From positions 141,794,001-141,858,000 of the forward strand of contig NC_043000.1 in the NCBI RefSeq assembly GCF_006345805.1: a DNA stretch of 64,000 bases. The letters are read 5' to 3'. This DNA is from Octopus sinensis. Lineage: Eukaryota. Positions 17,515 through 59,764 of the stretch are shown here, piece by piece; position 1 is the first letter of the stretch, and the number at the start of each line of letters is the position of its first letter. The notes under the pieces were generated by a model. It did not search any database. It was given only the letters and a program-made list of their open reading frames with translations, and was not told where the DNA came from. The position numbers and the translations under genes are program-made.

Positions 17515-20851
<3,337 letters not shown>

Positions 20852-31655: not shown

Positions 31656-33041
<1,386 letters not shown>

Positions 33042-33184
33042 ATTTTTATTATTATATCAACACTCGCATCTTATTTGCTGGGCATGATGGTAAGTGTCTG
33101 TTGTCCACAGCCAGCAGACTAAGGTGATACCTGTTTACTGGTCATGCATCAATAACTCTGATTTTTGTAAGTGTTGTAGGTAGT

Positions 33185-46522: not shown

Positions 46523-46872
46523 ATAAAGGAATTTTTGTTAAATCGTCGTTCGACTCCATTCTTTCATTTATTTATATATATATATATATGTAATTGTGAA
46601 TGAATTATATGAAAGTGGAATGAATTATATTGACGACTTGTTAAGTTATTAAGCAGAGGCATTTAAGAAATCTTAGAAATATAAGGGACTACCGGTGCTT
46701 ATTTTGTATCAGGTCTTTTGTGTGTTGTACAAAGATATTAGGTAAGGTAAAAACGTATTCAAAGAATAGACTTCCTTGTTTTGATGCACTTGAGAAATTG
46801 TGAGTCTAGTAAATGAAAATATATCTCCGAAATAAACTTGGATCAGTAATACAGTAAGATAATCTTTATGAA

Positions 46873-47105
46873 GGCTATGAGCTGGCAGAAATGTTAGCAC
46901 GCCGGGCGAAATGCGTAGCCGTATTTCGTCTGTCGTTACGTTGTGAGTTCAAATTCCGCCGAGGTCGACTTTGCCTTTCATCCTTTCGGAGTCGATAAAT
47001 TAAGTACCAGTTACGCACTGGGGTCGCTGTAAACGACTTAATCCCTTTGTCTGTCTTTGTTTGTCCCCTCTATGTTTAGCCCCTTGTGGGCAATAAAGAA
47101 ATATA
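46873..47105 (+). mobile_element. SINE family A, single unit
   Basis: Homology to 5156 and 41593 copies. Confidence 0.9.
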
Positions 47106-47489: not shown

Positions 47490-47694
47490 TACTCTTCTAC
47501 TTGTTTCAATCATTTGACTGGAGCACCGCCTTTAGTCGAGCAAATCGACCCCAGGATTTAGTCTTTGTAAGCCAAGTACTTATTCTATCGGTCTCTTATG
47601 CGGAACCGCTAGGTGACGGGGACATAAACACACCAGCATCGGTTGTCAAGCGATGTTGGGGAACAAACACAAACACACAAACGTACACACACAC

Positions 47695-47740: not shown

Positions 47741-47826
47741 TAATAAATAAAATATATGCATACATACAAACATATATGTACGTACCGACATCTACATGTA
47801 TATATACATGCATATGTAAATATATA

Positions 47827-47897
<71 letters not shown>

Positions 47898-48012
47898 ATA
47901 TAATATATAATATATATATATATATATATATAAAAGTTGAGTTGTGGGGTATCGCACGAGTGGGATTATATAAGAAAAAGGTTTGAAAATGCAATTTAAA
48001 CGATGTTTATTT

Positions 48013-48053
48013 ACTTAACCGGTTTTCACTCTTTGGTAAAAGATTGTCAAAGT
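48013..48053 (-). ncRNA. Minimal hammerhead, U3:A8 core variant
   Basis: act-TTGACAA-tcttt-tacc-aaaga-gt-GAAA-ACCGGT-TA-agt, then aaataaa. Confidence 0.55.
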
Positions 48054-48417
48054 TACATTTAAGGAAACATTGAATAATATGGGTTCAAAAAAGTGTGTTC
48101 ACATAATTGTATATTGTATATTGTATGTGTGTATATATATGCTAGGTGTATTTGTGTGATATTATATTATGTATGTATGTGTTCGTGTGTTGTGTGTGTG
48201 TGTGGTGTGTGTGTGTGTGTTGTGTGTGTATGTGTGTTATATATCTGTGTATGTTATATATAGATACATATTATATTGTGTGCTGTGTGTATATGTGATA
48301 TATGTGGGTGCGTTGTGTGTGTGGGTGTGTGTGTTCTTGTGTGTGTGTGTTGTTTGTATGTGGTTGTGTGTTGTGTTTGTTAACTATGTGTGTGTGTGTG
48401 TGTGTGTGTGGTGTTGT

Positions 48418-48450
<33 letters not shown>

Positions 48451-48877
48451 GTGTGACAAACAGACGCTATCTGACCAGGGCACGAACACATCTACTCACA
48501 CCCGCATACTAACCTCCTGATAACCCCAAAATCATTCATGCATAAAGGGGAAGTATACACCACATTGGCTACTTCCTCTGTTCTCTCAGTTCAGCCTTTC
48601 TGCTAATCCCAACAGGTCAGTAAAAAAACATATTCTCGCCTTGTGTTAAAATATTCTGAGATGTATAAAAAAGCCATTTAATTTTTGTTGCTGTCAAAGG
48701 CTGTAATATATAACCGAAGATTGTATATATATACATGTAATGTGACAATTTGCGACAACCAATAATTAACGCAACCAATTCCAATAAATATTTGTTTTTA
48801 TTTTTCTACCAAATTTTCCCAAAACATTCTCATCACACTATTGAACTTCTCTGTTACCAAACACTATATCTATACAT

Positions 48878-49100
48878 GTAATGTGACAATTATGTTAAAA
48901 AAACATTTTTGAATTCATAATATCCAATGTGACAATTATGTAAAAAACTTTTTTGAATGCATAATACTCAATGTGACAATTATGTAAAAACCTTTTTGAA
49001 TGCATAATACTCAATGTGACAATTATGTAAAAACCTTTTTGAATGCATAATACTCAATGTGACAATTATGTAAAAAACTTTTTTTGAACCCATATTATTC
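48878..49100. repeat. ~43-bp minisatellite x5 (aatgtgacaattatgtaaaaa.ctttttgaatgcataatactc)
   Basis: Direct inspection. Confidence 0.92.
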
Positions 49101-49117
49101 AATTTTCCTTAAATGTA

Positions 49118-49155
49118 ACTTTTGACAATTTACCAAAGAGTGAAACCGGTTAAGT
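49118..49155 (+). ncRNA. Minimal hammerhead, U3:A8 core variant (stem II partly deleted)
   Basis: actt-TTGACAA-tttaccaaagagt-GAAAC-CG-GTT-aagt; AATAAA 49157-49162. Confidence 0.5.
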
Positions 49156-49196
49156 AAATAAACATCGTTTAAATTGCATTTTCAAACCTTTTTTCT

Positions 49197-49276
<80 letters not shown>

Positions 49277-49282
49277 CATATA

Positions 49283-49412
49283 TACGACGGGCTTCTTTCA
49301 GTTTCCGTCTGCCAAATCCACTCACAAGGCTTTGGTCGGCCCGAGGTTATAGTAGAAGACCCTTGCCCAAGGTGCCACGCAGTGGGACTGAATCCGGAAC
49401 CATGTGGTTGGT
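49283..49412 (-). mobile_element. 5' half of SINE family B
   Basis: cgacgggcttctttcagtttccgtct...gtgccacgcagtgggactgaatccggaaccatgtggttgg matches 60577-60705. Confidence 0.88.
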
Positions 49413-50017
49413 ATATTCATAAGAGCACTCTGAACACACAACCGACATAATTTTCAGTTATGGCATATGACATCTGACAACGTAACTAATATCCATTTGC
49501 GAAATAGGCAATAATTAACAATATGATCAAAATCTGATCAAGTAGGTAAATATGCAGACAGAGCTTACTGTGAATAAACGTGAAATGAACAAAGTTCTAA
49601 ACAGATACAAACTGCTGCGCCCACAAACATACTCGCACACACAAATGTTTTTGAAACAAGAGAAACAAAATTCTGTAAAGGAAAAGCTGTTTATTATTAA
49701 CAAAAACTATCCCCCAAATTACCCAACCATGAAAAGTACTATTGATGAGGGAGTTAATATATATGCGCTTCATTACATTTTCAAATTATATATATATAAA
49801 GAATTTTACACAAAGACGACTTTTATTTAAATCCTTTTAGTAACGACCACGGAAATCATCAACGCCGAAATAAATTAATAATACAGCCGACCACCTACAT
49901 TTGCAAGGAAATACAAACACGACACTACGGAGAAACAAAAGCAACCAATGAAGAGGTCAGAATAAACCACCCATTTAAACACAAGGCAAGTTAACCGGTG
50001 AACAAACACAAGCACCT

Positions 50018-50249
50018 ATTTCTTTATTACCCACAAGGGGCTAAAGATAGAGGGAACAAACAAGGACAGACATAGGTATTAAGTCGATTACATCGACCCC
50101 GGTGCGGAACTGGTACTTAATTTATCGACCCCGAAAGGATTAAAGGCAAAGTCAACCTCGGCGGAATTTGAACTCAGAACGTAACGACAGACGAAATACC
50201 GCTAAGTATTTCGCTCGCCGTGCTAACGTTTCTGCCAGCTCGCCGCCTT
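50018..50249 (-). mobile_element. SINE family A, 15-bp TSD
   Basis: TSD caaacacaagcacct at 50003-50017 and 50250-50264. Confidence 0.93.
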
Positions 50250-52607
50250 CAAACACAAGCACCTTTAGACAGGACACACACCCATATATATACACATGCT
50301 TATACCTATATATACATAATACATACATACATATAAATGTACATGTGTGTGTGGGTGTGCATGCCTATGTGGAATACTAAGTTTACACTACGTTAGTAAA
50401 TGGTTAGAATGTACGAAATACTTAGGAAATCTTCGAATCATTTATTCCTGTGTAAATTACTATAGAGATTCCAGACACATACACTAATATTAATATATAT
50501 TATTAATTTTATAAGATATGGTTTAACTATTAGTGACTTACACCCAAACCTATTTATAGATGTACAATGAGTGTTATGTAGTAGACTGAAATACAGAGGT
50601 TATTCAAATAACGATTTATTGCGAATAATAAATATCCGGATGTATTCGGTCAGCCAGTAATTATCAAGGTATTAAATTATATTTATTCTTTGACAGTTTT
50701 AAAGAGCATCATAAAGTATTTAAAAAATTTTTCAGTTTAAATACAGACTTCAAGTGAGTGAGGGATTGAAAAGGAGAAATGAGAAAGCAAGTGTCACTCA
50801 AGCGTAATTTGAAGATATAACGTTGTAGGATGACTAATTAGAATAACCAGGTGTATTTTACGATTTGGTGGTTTGGTCTGACTAGGCATAAGTTGTATGA
50901 TCCGATAGGGGCAACGACAGAGAGAGAAAGAGAGAGAGAGAGAGAGAGGAGAGAGAGGTGGGGAGACTGGTTTGGGAGACATGCGAAAAGCAAAAGAGAT
51001 CCGACTGATTATAAGACGCGTTACACTATTTACATACCGCCTTTAAGTTAAAATATGAAATCTCGTTGAGATCAAATTTGACTTTCATCTCGCCTGAATC
51101 GATGAAGAATATATAAGAGAGGTAGTACAGACTATTTAATCGATTAACACCTCACCCAAAAATATAACAATTATCTAAATACGCTGGATTAACATACTCG
51201 ATAGAGGATTAGGGAAAATGTTTTGCACTATTTACTCCTGCGCTTCACGTTCTGAGTACAAATAACAATAATATTGTGGTCAACCGTCTCTCTATCATTC
51301 CGAGTTCAATAAAGCAAATTACGGTTCAGCATTAGGATCGTTTTAGTTGCCTATCACCTTCAACTTGAAATTGCTAGCCTTTTGCCTAGACTAAAAACAT
51401 AAAAAATATTGTTGTTGTTATGGTCCTCATTGCATAAAATACGTGAGGTTTGAAAACCTAAGAAATTATTATTTTAATAAGTACATACCAGTCAGTTCTA
51501 GAAACATCTGAGAGTAAAAGGAGGGTATTTTTGTGTGTATGGTGACGCCTGTATGCAACTGATTGCCACTGCTAACATGTAATCCTGCTAACTTGTTATA
51601 TATTCAAGTCTTCACAGCAACTATTACCTCAGAAAAACACAGAAGCAATGATTACCTAGAAACGGTTTTCTTTGTCTGATATACAGAAAAACGACTAAGA
51701 ATGGAGCATTTCAGTATGTTTTGAAATAAAATCCGTGGAGCAGGAATTGGGTTGACCAATTTGAAGATTGTCGTTTAGTACAAGAAATTAAGACTTTTCT
51801 ACACTTCCGGGCTGGAAAGTGATACTGAAACCAGACATGTATCTGACTTGTTTCTGAATCATTGCTGTACAGCAAAATCTGTCTATTAAGTGAAATGCAA
51901 GCCTTACTGAATGTCAAACTAGGGCGTCCACAGACACTAATGGACAACCAATATCTGATACGTCGTGTTGTTAGGTAAATTATGCATCATGATGGTGTTC
52001 AGTGTTCAGGTTATTATTATTTTTTTTTATTTTTTTATTAAAGAAGACTCCTGGCTTCATCATTGGGGTAGTGGAATCACGATAAGTTCATGGGTTCGAT
52101 GTCTGAACTCAGCACCATATTTGTATTTGAGGAAAGTATTTCATTTCACGTTGTTGCTATGTAGTTCCCGTAAAATGAGTAGAGCAAGCGAGTTCCGAGG
52201 CAGCCTTCTCTTCTATCAAATGTTACATCCTCAGTGCCTCTCTTTGTCAAGAGTGGGATTGCCTAGATAATGTCTATATGTGATCGCAAATATATAGGCA
52301 CACAAAACAATGAGCGAAAACACGATAAATGTTGTTAGGTTATAGTCAGTTGCGTGTTGTAGATACGGCACTTACTTTTATTTTTTAATTTTTTTACTGC
52401 TTCTTTCCTTTTGCGTGTGGAGTATTGACTTTCAAAAATGTCAGTTTATGGAAGTGGTTTGGCACTTCATTCTGCTACTTGTCATTATTGTGAAGCAGTG
52501 AAGCGAAATAAAAGCCCCGACCCTTTTCACAGCATTCACACTTCCTCTGTTTCTATTACTTTCTCTCGGTTTCTCTCTTTCTAGTTTTTTTCTGTCTTAC
52601 TCTCTCA

Positions 52608-53472: not shown

Positions 53473-53644
53473 AGGCGCAGGAGTGGCTGTGTGGTAAGTA
53501 GCTTGCTAACCAGCCACATGGTTCTGTGTTCAGTCCCACTGCGTGGCATCTTGGGCAAGTGTCTTCTGCTATAGCCCCGGGCCGACCAATGCAGTGTGAG
53601 TGGATTTGGTAGACAGAAACTGAAAGAAGCCAGTCGTATATATG

Positions 53645-53683
<39 letters not shown>

Positions 53684-53887
53684 TTGTGTTTGTCCCCCTA
53701 GCATTGCTTGACAACTGATGCTGGTGTGTTTACGTCCCCGTAACTTAGCGGTTCGGCAAAAGAGACCGATAGAATAAGTACTGGGCTTACAAAGAATAAG
53801 TCCCGGGGTCGATTTGTTCGACTAAAGGCGGTGCTCCAGCATGGCCGCAGTCAAATGACTGAAACAAGTAAAAGAGTAAAAGAGTAA
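53473..53887 (+). mobile_element. SINE family B, full length, internal (TA)n(TG)n, (aagagta)n tail
   Basis: tRNA-like head ggcgcaggagtggctgtgtggtaag...gttcagtccc; CORE-like ttgggcaagtgtctt. Confidence 0.92.
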
Positions 53888-58317: not shown

Positions 58318-59764
58318 CTAGCAGTATCGCCCGGCGTTGATCGGATTTGTAAGGGAAATAACTATAAAGCATTTTTAGAGAGTTATAGCCAAAAAATAGC
58401 AAAAAAAAAATGCATTAAAAATGGAAAAAAAATTATGGTTAATTTTTTTTTAAATCGTTGACTCATCGTAGACATTTTTAGAGAGTTACTTCCCTCATAT
58501 AATAGCGAAAAAATGCATTAAAATGGAAAAAAATGATGGTAAATTATTTTTTAAATCGTAGACTCATCGTAGACGCGCGGTAATACCCAGAAGGGCTCGA
58601 TATGAATCACGACTACAAGATACACGGTTTTGGTTAAACTGCACTGCAAAATGTGGGAGTAGTTAGGAATCTAAATCGTAGGAGACAGACACACAACTTT
58701 ACTTTTATATATAAAGACTAGCAGTATCGCCCGGCGTTGCTCGGGTTTGTAAGGAAAATAACTATATAAGCATTTTTAGAGAGTTATAGCAAAAAAATGC
58801 ATTAAAAATGGAATAAAAAATGATGATATTTTTTTTTTAAATCGTTGACTCAGTGTCTTCAAGCCATGAAGTCGTTGTTCTAAAAGAACGCTGGTCTCCT
58901 CGACAACGCATTGCGACTTTGGTTTCCTTACACTCCCTTCCCCACAGCTTCACGAGGGAGGGAAGAAGGGGGAGAAGCAACACAGGTGCAGGTGTTTGAG
59001 CGTGGACGCCAACTCCGCCGCCATCGACACACGAAAAATTATGCATTAAAATGGAATAAAAAATGATGTTAAATTATTTTTAAAATCGTAGATTCATCGT
59101 AGACGCGCGCTAATAGCCAGACGGGCTCGATATTAATCACGACTATAAGATACCCGAATTTGGTTAAACTGCACCGCAAAATGTGGGAGGAGTTAGGAAT
59201 CTAAATCGAAGGGGACAGACACTCACACAACTACAGTTTTATATATATAGACTAGCAGTATCGCCCGGCGTTGCTCGGGTTTGTAAGGGAAATAACTATA
59301 TAAGCATTTTTAGAGAGTTACTTCCTTTATAGATGCCAATTCGGGCTTTCTTAGCCATTTCTGTTTTGGTGTCTTCAAGCCATGATGTCGTTGTTCTAAA
59401 AGAACGCTGGTCTCCTCGACAACGCATTACGACGTTGATTTCTTTACACTCCCTTCCCCACAGCTTCACGAGGGAGAGAAGAAGGGGGAGAAGCAAACAG
59501 GTGCAGGTGTGAGCGTGGACGCCAACTCCACAGCCATCGACACACGAAAAATTATGCATTAAAATGGAATAAAAAATGATGTTAAATTATTTTTAAAATC
59601 GTAGACTCATCGTTGACGCGCGCTAATAGCCAGACGGGCTCGATATGAATCACGACTATAAGATACCCGAATTTGGTTAAACTGCACCGCAAAATGTGGG
59701 AGGAGTTAGGAATCTAAATCGAAGGGGACAGACACTCACACAACTACAGTTTTATATATATAGA
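58318..59764 (-). mobile_element. Head-to-tail trimer of non-autonomous Helitrons (58318-58717, 58718-59251, 59252-59764)
   Basis: Each unit on the minus strand starts TC(TATATAT...) and ends with the hairpin CCCGAGCAACGCCGGG (degenerate in the 58318 unit) 8 nt before CTAG; the array sits between A and T with no TSD. Confidence 0.92.

What the first reader, a model, noticed from the sequence alone, without database searches (positions are those of the whole stretch)
47967..49202. Inverted terminal repeats carrying a U3:A8 compensatory-variant hammerhead
Seen: both ~150-bp inverted repeats have hammerhead topology (stem I, short stem II, GAAA, palindromic ACCGGT stem III, AATAAA), but the core reads UUGACAA instead of CUGANGA. 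Established: C3 and G8 form a Watson-Crick pair in the active hammerhead, and U3:A8 restores it. Inference: two changes that jointly keep this pair suggest a functional variant ribozyme family that standard CUGANGA searches would miss. The stem II junction is imperfect, so these copies may be decayed.
Basis: partly seen in the sequence, partly recalled or inferred. Interest (0 to 1): 0.75.

Follow-up and report, generated by a model that had tools for sequence, protein, structure and literature searches.

The report
Truncated Penelope element with variant hammerhead
This is a cut-short, mirror-image copy of a common Penelope-like jumping gene whose end carries a hammerhead-shaped RNA motif with an already published U-A core swap plus an unusual U·U junction kept across sister families; the family motif is likely a weak self-cutting RNA (untested), and these two copies are predicted to be inactive.

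Summary
The inverted repeats are real but are not DNA-transposon ends. They are two back-to-back 3' ends of a young Penelope-like retroelement (RT, zinc-finger linker, GIY-YIG in longer copies), inserted in (TA)n. One end carries the ~35-nt Penelope "tail" (47932-47966), just outside the given coordinates. U3-A8 is the family state (576 copies; G8 in 5), not decay, but it is published for Schistosoma Penelope elements, and this scan has noted it in octopus DNA before. The "imperfect" stem II junction is also inherited: U·U next to an invariant C-G, in 65 of 72 sister-family hits, while stem II above it changes compensatorily. None of 56 published Penelope hammerheads that I could read has this junction; one key catalogue (Lünse 2016) was not available. 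Position 17 varies among U, C and A and is rarely G, as the hammerhead rule requires. Against activity: helices are weak, G10.1-C11.1 is lost, and there are no cleavage or RNA-end data. Both window copies carry indels and would pair with each other. Verdict: known element type, known core swap, possibly new junction variant.

The parts
47820..47931 (.). (TA)n microsatellite, left flank (insertion target)
   Evidence: sequence; 61 of 62 distinct family ends are followed by (TA)4+
47932..47966 (-). Penelope-type 'tail', ~35-37 nt, present at this end only; in tandem copies it lies between the short end and the ORF start
   Evidence: 28 of 62 distinct ends have it; 14 of 17 outward-facing pairs have it on exactly one side
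47967..48110 (-). Left arm: short 5'-truncated copy of the element's 3' end (pseudo-LTR end)
   Evidence: 177 matches, 2 mismatches to copy L040 over 47930-48110
48013..48054 (-). Left hammerhead motif: core UUGACAA 48050-48044, stem II 48043-48028, GAAAA (one extra A), ACCGGU 48023-48018, U17 48017; one U missing from stem I
48108..48115 (.). Inversion junction between the two truncated copies (approximate)
   Evidence: family 3' UTR matches start at 48108-48115
48115..49199 (+). Longer copy (1.09 kb): 3' part of the family's ~2.1-kb 3' UTR, no tail, no coding sequence; (TG)-rich at 48115-48456
   Evidence: no tblastn hit of the family protein in the window
48898..49073 (+). Four 43-44-bp tandem repeats just upstream of the hammerhead, shared by the family in variable number
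49118..49155 (+). Right hammerhead motif: stem I ACUU 49118-21, core UUGACAA 49122-28, stem II 49129-41 (3-nt deletion against the family), G12 49142, ACCGGU 49145-50, U17 49151 (predicted cut after it), AAGU 49152-55
49157..49162 (+). AATAAA just 3' of the predicted cut; role not tested
   Evidence: sequence
49198..49270 (.). (TA)n microsatellite, right flank
   Evidence: sequence

Best explanation
The locus is a non-coding, 5'-truncated and inverted insertion of a young Penelope-like retroelement family in a (TA)n tract, and the motif in both arms is the family's type I hammerhead-shaped element (U3-A8 core, U·U/C-G base of stem II, palindromic stem III), which likely cuts slowly and only as a dimer in tandem transcripts, while these two copies are predicted to be inactive. 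Shown: family membership, the tail at one end, (TA)n flanks, RT-linker-GIY-YIG ORF upstream of the same 3' end in longer copies, motif conserved across sister families with compensatory stem changes. Inferred: an autonomous tandem copy is transcribed; its GIY-YIG nuclease nicks (TA)n; reverse transcription starts at either of two T-rich/TA sites about 47-50 and 85 nt past the predicted cut (short end and tailed end), runs a short way, and two such truncated copies join back to back. Because insertions extend past the cut site, the template must be uncut or re-ligated/circular RNA. In tandem copies the predicted cut lies about 120 nt upstream of the likely start codon, so cleavage would set the 5' end of unit-length RNA.
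For: Element: GIY-YIG PF01541 E 1.1e-5 and RVT_1 E 1e-7 in copies with the same 3' UTR and end; C-x4-C-x2-C linker before the nuclease; end-plus-tail running into the ORF start in 3 ends; inverted pairs of 1.1-7.2 kb with variable breakpoints, 14 of 17 with one tail, 3 with two, 0 with none; this matches the PLE layout in PMC8557442 (passages) and the tail explanation in PMC11167929 (passages). Motif: U3-A8 576 copies against 5 with G8; 362 hits in sister families (control 3) and 1,143 with A, C or G at 17 (control 0; G in 3 of 100 listed). Positions not fixed by the pattern: 10.3-11.3 is U-A or A-U, 10.4-11.4 is U·G, U-A or G-C; on 12 chosen rows 93.3% of cells pair against 76.5% shuffled (0 of 500) and at most 60% in slid registers. 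Protein-first sample: 6 of 20 GIY-YIG loci had a descriptor match downstream, 3 C3-G8 and 3 U3-A8, none mismatched. In family B the predicted lowest-energy two-strand fold keeps stems I, II and III.
Against: No cleavage data. G10.1-C11.1, called highly conserved in PLE hammerheads (PMC4209133), is replaced by U·U plus C-G. In the window's family stem II is marginal (-0.2 to -0.5 kcal/mol) and the hammerhead pairing is 3-5 kcal/mol above a competing fold in which stem I 5' pairs with stem II 3' (hammerhead pairs only, not extended). The covariation rests on about four family groups, hand-picked rows and a structure I derived from these sequences; 39 of 500 shuffles reach the number of doubly changed pairs; the stem I change in family B may be a one-base register shift. 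Core letters are conserved by construction in pattern-found hits. No C3-G8 member in the clade. In Anolis Poseidon, hammerhead mutants do not affect insertion in vitro and no RNA-seq reads end at the site (PMC11167929). Clade placement (Neptune versus Nematis) was not tested with reference RTs.
Confidence: 0.72

Rival explanations
1. The element is as described, but in this clade the motif no longer cuts: it is a hammerhead-derived structure kept as a binding or priming signal for the element's own RT-nuclease protein (or a host factor), which would explain a conserved but non-canonical junction.
For: Loss of G10.1-C11.1, weak AU-rich helices, competing fold in the window's family; insertions extend 47-85 nt past the predicted cut, so uncut RNA must serve as template; cleavage is dispensable in vitro for Anolis Poseidon (PMC11167929).
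Against: Core boxes, the 3-8 pair type and the not-G rule at 17 (U, C, A in different subfamilies; G in 3 of 100 listed) are what catalysis would select; low but real activity is reported for other PLE minimal hammerheads (PMC4209133).
Confidence: 0.2
2. The motif is a decaying remnant under no selection; similarity among families reflects shared descent only.
For: Few independent families; AU-rich sequence pairs easily; the U·U junction and U3-A8 could each be one inherited event.
Against: Families whose nuclease domains are only about 50-60% identical and whose 3' UTRs differ in length (about 0.6 versus 2.1 kb) keep the core while stem II changes on both sides.
Confidence: 0.06
3. The repeats are terminal inverted repeats of a non-autonomous DNA transposon (MITE or Helentron-like) with TA target duplication.
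For: About 150-bp inverted ends in (TA)n and subterminal tandem repeats look like that at first sight.
Against: Ends are asymmetric by a tail; the inverted part varies from about 150 bp to more than 1 kb among copies; direct tandems and single ends exist; longer copies contain RT and GIY-YIG in sense to the same end.
Confidence: 0.02

Closest known systems
Minimal type I hammerheads of metazoan Penelope-like elements, U3-A8 variant of Schistosoma mansoni Cercyon (Cervera and De la Pena 2014, PMC4209133; main text parts 1-2 of 4 and supplement parts 1-2 of 3 read)
   Same: Located in the pseudo-LTR end; U3-A8 core; short stem I; palindromic stem III implying a dimer; a U after A9; opposite-strand pairs in truncated copies.
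   Different: Stem II opens with U·U then C-G (equivalently C10.1-G11.1 with an extra U on each side); none of the 56 motifs in Fig. S3, as read from the PDF text, has U·U or a C-G closing pair. Stem III palindrome is 6 nt. No octopus element in that paper's Table S1 or Fig. S3.
Neptune/Nematis EN+ Penelope-like elements (Craig et al. 2021, PMC8557442; passages read)
   Same: RT then CX2-5CxxC linker then C-terminal GIY-YIG; 5' truncation, partial tandems, inverted 5'-truncated copy, 30-40-bp tail at one end, microsatellite target.
   Different: Long (about 2.1 kb) TG-rich 3' UTR with 43-bp repeats; clade not placed against reference RTs here.
Anolis Poseidon PAc (PMC11167929; passages read)
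   Same: Two fixed ends separated by a tail; hammerhead upstream of the ends, so template is uncut RNA.
   Different: PAc has C3-G8 and its hammerhead overlaps the start codon; here the predicted cut is about 120 nt upstream of the likely start.
Small PLE hammerhead variants that cleave as dimers (Lunse, Weinberg and Breaker 2016; seen only as a citation in PMC6765202; paper not held)
   Same: Type I, very short palindromic stem III, dimer cleavage, per the review's passage.
   Different: Could not check whether a U·U/C-G junction is among its variants; this limits the novelty claim.

Membership tests
EN+ Penelope-like element | RT with C-terminal GIY-YIG endonuclease in one ORF, in family copies | tested here: met
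   RVT_1 and GIY-YIG in L046/L038/L031; the window copy itself has no coding part
EN+ Penelope-like element | Pseudo-LTRs from partial tandems; inverted 5'-truncated copies | tested here: met
   tandem end-ORF junctions in L045, L046, L052; 17 outward-facing pairs of 1.1-7.2 kb
EN+ Penelope-like element | 30-40-nt tail at one end | tested here: met
   14 of 17 pairs with one tail, 3 with two (2 of these are internal tandem junctions), including the window copy
Neptune/Nematis clade | CX2-5CxxC linker between RT and EN; microsatellite target | tested here: met
   C-x4-C-x2-C in L046 translation; 61 of 62 ends followed by (TA)4+
Neptune/Nematis clade | RT phylogeny with reference elements | not tested
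   only a rough nuclease-region tree of this genome's copies was built
Type I hammerhead ribozyme | Core boxes NUGANNA and GAAA with a Watson-Crick 3-8 pair | tested here: met
   U3-A8 in 576 versus 5 U3-G8; 66 of 72 sister hits U3-A8, 6 C3-A8
Type I hammerhead ribozyme | Three helices, supported by covariation | tested here: met
   stem III only as an intermolecular palindrome; few independent families
Type I hammerhead ribozyme | NUH cleavage triplet | tested here: met
   GUU, GUC, GUA in different subfamilies; G17 in 3 of 100 listed
Canonical / published minimal PLE hammerhead | Purine-pyrimidine (G10.1-C11.1) pair closing stem II | tested here: not met
   U·U in 118 of 129 rows and 65 of 72 pattern hits where these positions were free; so filed as a variant, not a canonical member
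Type I hammerhead ribozyme | Site-specific self-cleavage | not testable with these tools
   only contigs were available from sequencing runs
DNA transposon with TIRs | Symmetric fixed-length termini and transposase-coding partner | tested here: not met

The most novel reading that the evidence does not exclude
A clade of octopus Penelope-like elements (about 2,000 copies, at least four family groups) has kept an active hammerhead in which both the 3-8 pair (U-A) and the base of stem II (U·U over C-G instead of G10.1-C11.1) differ from the textbook core, a natural variant invisible to Rfam models and to published descriptors, in a genome where U3-A8 outnumbers C3-G8 among ACCGGU hammerheads.
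Probability: 0.4. Interest if true: 0.55.

Novelty: new variant of a known kind. Interest (0 to 1): 0.34.

Why it matters
The element type and the U3-A8 swap are known, so the locus itself is ordinary retroelement debris. What may matter is the clade-wide U·U/C-G junction: if it cuts, it widens the rules for the hammerhead core and the descriptors used to find it; if it does not, it is a clean natural case of a hammerhead kept for a non-catalytic role, bearing on the open question of what hammerheads do in Penelope elements. Sister families with U·U, G-C or C3-G8 versions in one genome give ready-made controls.

Tried and rejected
Rfam scans of the window and of the element gave only microsatellite-driven miRNA-type matches, no hammerhead among those listed (in one search, 150 of 180 were listed). 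Single-strand MFE folds of the arms do not give the hammerhead. DNA-transposon reading rejected. Sequencing runs: no RNA holder on record listed; 20 of 24 listed runs hold the stretch, under four organism codes; only contigs, so no RNA ends or strand could be seen. Laying contigs on the right arm shows the family form with the 3 extra bases in all four runs but cannot tell whether the window's deletion is real or an assembly error; homopolymer indels are frequent across copies, so the left arm's two 1-nt indels may be errors. One search used a stem II string shifted by one column and was replaced. One search crashed and was replaced. The nuclease-region tree is distorted by frameshifts and was not used for counting origins; 14 of the 20 protein-first loci gave no descriptor match (truncation, long UTR or descriptor too strict; one, L092, has a family-B motif found). 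Two C3-G8 copies in the separate 2,626-copy family (L182, L183) were considered as direct covariation but are about what two independent point changes could give, so not counted. Papers not held: Lunse 2016, Arkhipova 2017 (PMC5850863), Przybilski and Hammann 2007 (PMC1986816). Searches for prior print: 'hammerhead'+'U3-A8' 1 paper, 'U3A8/C3G8' 0, G10.1/C11.1 4, octopus+hammerhead ribozyme 5, octopus+Penelope+Neptune 2; none seen to describe this family or junction from listings and the passages read.

Full report
Observation. Rfam does not report a hammerhead among the 10 matches at E<=10. The element sits between two (TA)n tracts.

Family. The right arm finds 924 candidates in the own genome; the 40 scored are 97-100% identical. 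Aligning their ends shows two fixed termini: one stops at ...CCTTTTTTCT then (TA)n, the other runs on about 37 nt and then meets (TA)n. In the window this tail is at 47932-47966, left of the given coordinates. Among 62 distinct ends in loci L001-L056, 28 have the tail, 34 do not, and 61 are followed by (TA)4+; of 17 outward-facing pairs 14 have one tail, 3 two, none zero. The window's interior (48115-49199) is the family's 3' region, and other copies are inverted at many different points, from about 150 bp to over 1 kb.

Coding partner. L031 holds an RT C-terminal part, a C-x4-C-x2-C linker and a GIY-YIG domain (PF01541, E 1.1e-5) in sense to the same end. That stretch has 2,602 candidates, 41 listed matches at 97-100%. 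In 20 longer loci the ORF ends about 2 kb upstream of the motif; L046 and L038 give RVT_1; in L045, L046 and L052 an end with tail runs into the ORF start. The 685-aa RT-EN piece has 899 relatives at E<=1e-50, the best named one an Octopus bimaculoides protein at 83% over 60%. This is the layout given for Penelope-like elements in PMC8557442 (passages): 5' truncation, partial tandems, inverted truncated copy, 30-40-bp tail at one end, CX2-5CxxC linker in Neptune/Nematis, microsatellite targets. The window itself has no coding remnant. The copy is young: 11 mismatches in 658 aligned bases against L040, with 19 gaps, many probably assembly indels.

The motif. U3-A8 is fixed: 576 exact pattern hits (control 0) against 5 with G8, all U3-G8, and 0 with C3-G8 plus the clade's junction. 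Allowing another base at 7 gives 362 hits (control 3) from sister families; allowing A, C or G at 17 gives 1,143 (control 0), G in 3 of the 100 listed. I fetched the first 72 of the 362 places in list order. At positions that the pattern left free: 10.1/11.1 is U·U in 65 of 72, 10.2/11.2 C-G in 52, 10.3/11.3 A-U in 44 and U-A in 13, 10.4/11.4 G-C in 32 and U-A in 13; 3/8 is U-A in 66 and C-A in 6. In the window's family group 10.4/11.4 is U·G in 43 of 51. On 12 chosen rows (10 family copies, 2 window arms) the named structure has 93.3% paired cells against 76.5 +/- 2.8 shuffled (0 of 500), covariation 0.44 against 0.14, slid registers at most 60%; the count of doubly changed pairs is reached by 39 of 500 shuffles. 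These rows stand for about four family groups, so the events are few. Family B copies lie 400-590 nt downstream of GIY-YIG ORFs about 43-60% identical to the window family's and show their own tails and (TA)n ends; family C and D hits share the downstream end sequence and TA flanks but I did not link them to ORFs. In a sample chosen by protein only (20 of 147 GIY-YIG places), 6 had a descriptor match downstream: 3 C3-G8, 3 U3-A8, none mismatched. A separate family with U3-A8 and a normal G10.1-C11.1 has 2,626 hits (98 of 100 listed U3-A8), whereas canonical CUGANGA...GAAACCGGUH gives 130 (control 24).

Against activity. In two-strand folds the window family's stem II is worth only -0.2 to -0.5 kcal/mol and the hammerhead pairs alone lie 3-5 kcal/mol above a competing fold; family B's lowest-energy fold keeps the three helices; family C is weak. 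The right window copy keeps 2 stem II pairs, the left only 1 stem I pair in register, and a transcript through the whole element is predicted to pair the right motif with the left arm. So these copies are predicted dead or locked. Sequencing runs gave contigs only and say nothing on cutting.

Mechanism. Shown: a retroelement family with two fixed ends in (TA)n. Inferred from PMC11167929 (passages): the two ends are two internal reverse-transcription start sites; here both are T-run/TA motifs that could pair with a nicked (TA)n target (inference). Since both lie past the predicted cut, uncut or circularised RNA is the template. The hammerhead would act in tandem transcripts, two palindromic ACCGGU pairing to form stem III (PMC4209133, PMC6765202 passages), cutting about 120 nt before the ORF. 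I put about 0.95 on the element identity, 0.9 on hammerhead ancestry of the motif, and 0.55-0.6 on measurable cleavage by intact family copies.

Comparison and novelty. U3-A8 in Penelope hammerheads, and opposite-strand pairs in truncated copies, are described in PMC4209133. Its Fig. S3 lists 56 motifs; as read from the PDF text, two are U3-A8, and none has U·U or C-G at the base of helix II. The C3-G8 Watson-Crick pair and the NUH rule are stated in PMC3884650 (passages). Lunse et al. 2016, the main catalogue of PLE hammerhead variants, could not be read, so the junction may already be in print. Earlier notes of this scan report U3-A8 Penelope hammerheads in octopus DNA several times; none was found by this sequence, by place, or by words for the junction.

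Verdict. Observation confirmed; interpretation partly supported. Known element type and known core swap; a clade-wide stem II junction variant that is possibly new and directly testable. Interest 0.34.

Noticed in passing
G000 genome-wide; L057-L076: A canonical C3-G8 hammerhead family (CUGACGA, GAGG/CCUC stem II, same ACCGGU palindrome) in tandems of about 355-360 bp and inverted pairs: looks like a non-LTR retrozyme.
   Followed up: no
G000 genome-wide; L202-L211: A 2,626-hit family with U3-A8 and normal G10.1-C11.1, often as inverted pairs 0.3-5 kb apart; an older subfamily has A10.1-U11.1. ORF linkage not checked.
   Followed up: partly
L183 (G000:C5:37594500-37598500): An outward-facing pair of the same family in which one motif is U3-A8 and the other C3-G8; may be two point changes or two subfamilies.
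   Followed up: partly
L088, L089, L091: Other GIY-YIG families with U3-A8 and different stem III palindromes (ACAUGU, AGCGCU); L085/L096 and L098 have C3-G8.
   Followed up: partly
L046:2116-3558 and relatives: The family ORF has a long N-terminal extension (about 480 aa, coiled-coil-like then Q/N/R-rich) with no Pfam match, ahead of the RT.
   Followed up: no
window 46869-47103 / 50017-50251; 49260-49412 / 53509-53661; 47518-47661 / 53696-53839: Three further inverted pairs at about 90%, dispersed short repeats (SINE-like by appearance) around the element.
   Followed up: no
window 17515-19164 / 19135-20784: A 1.62-kb tandem duplication at 99.9% identity; recent duplication or assembly artefact.
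   Followed up: no
window 31667-33055 and 58506-59764: Tandem duplications of about 650 bp (96%) and 525 bp (89%).
   Followed up: no
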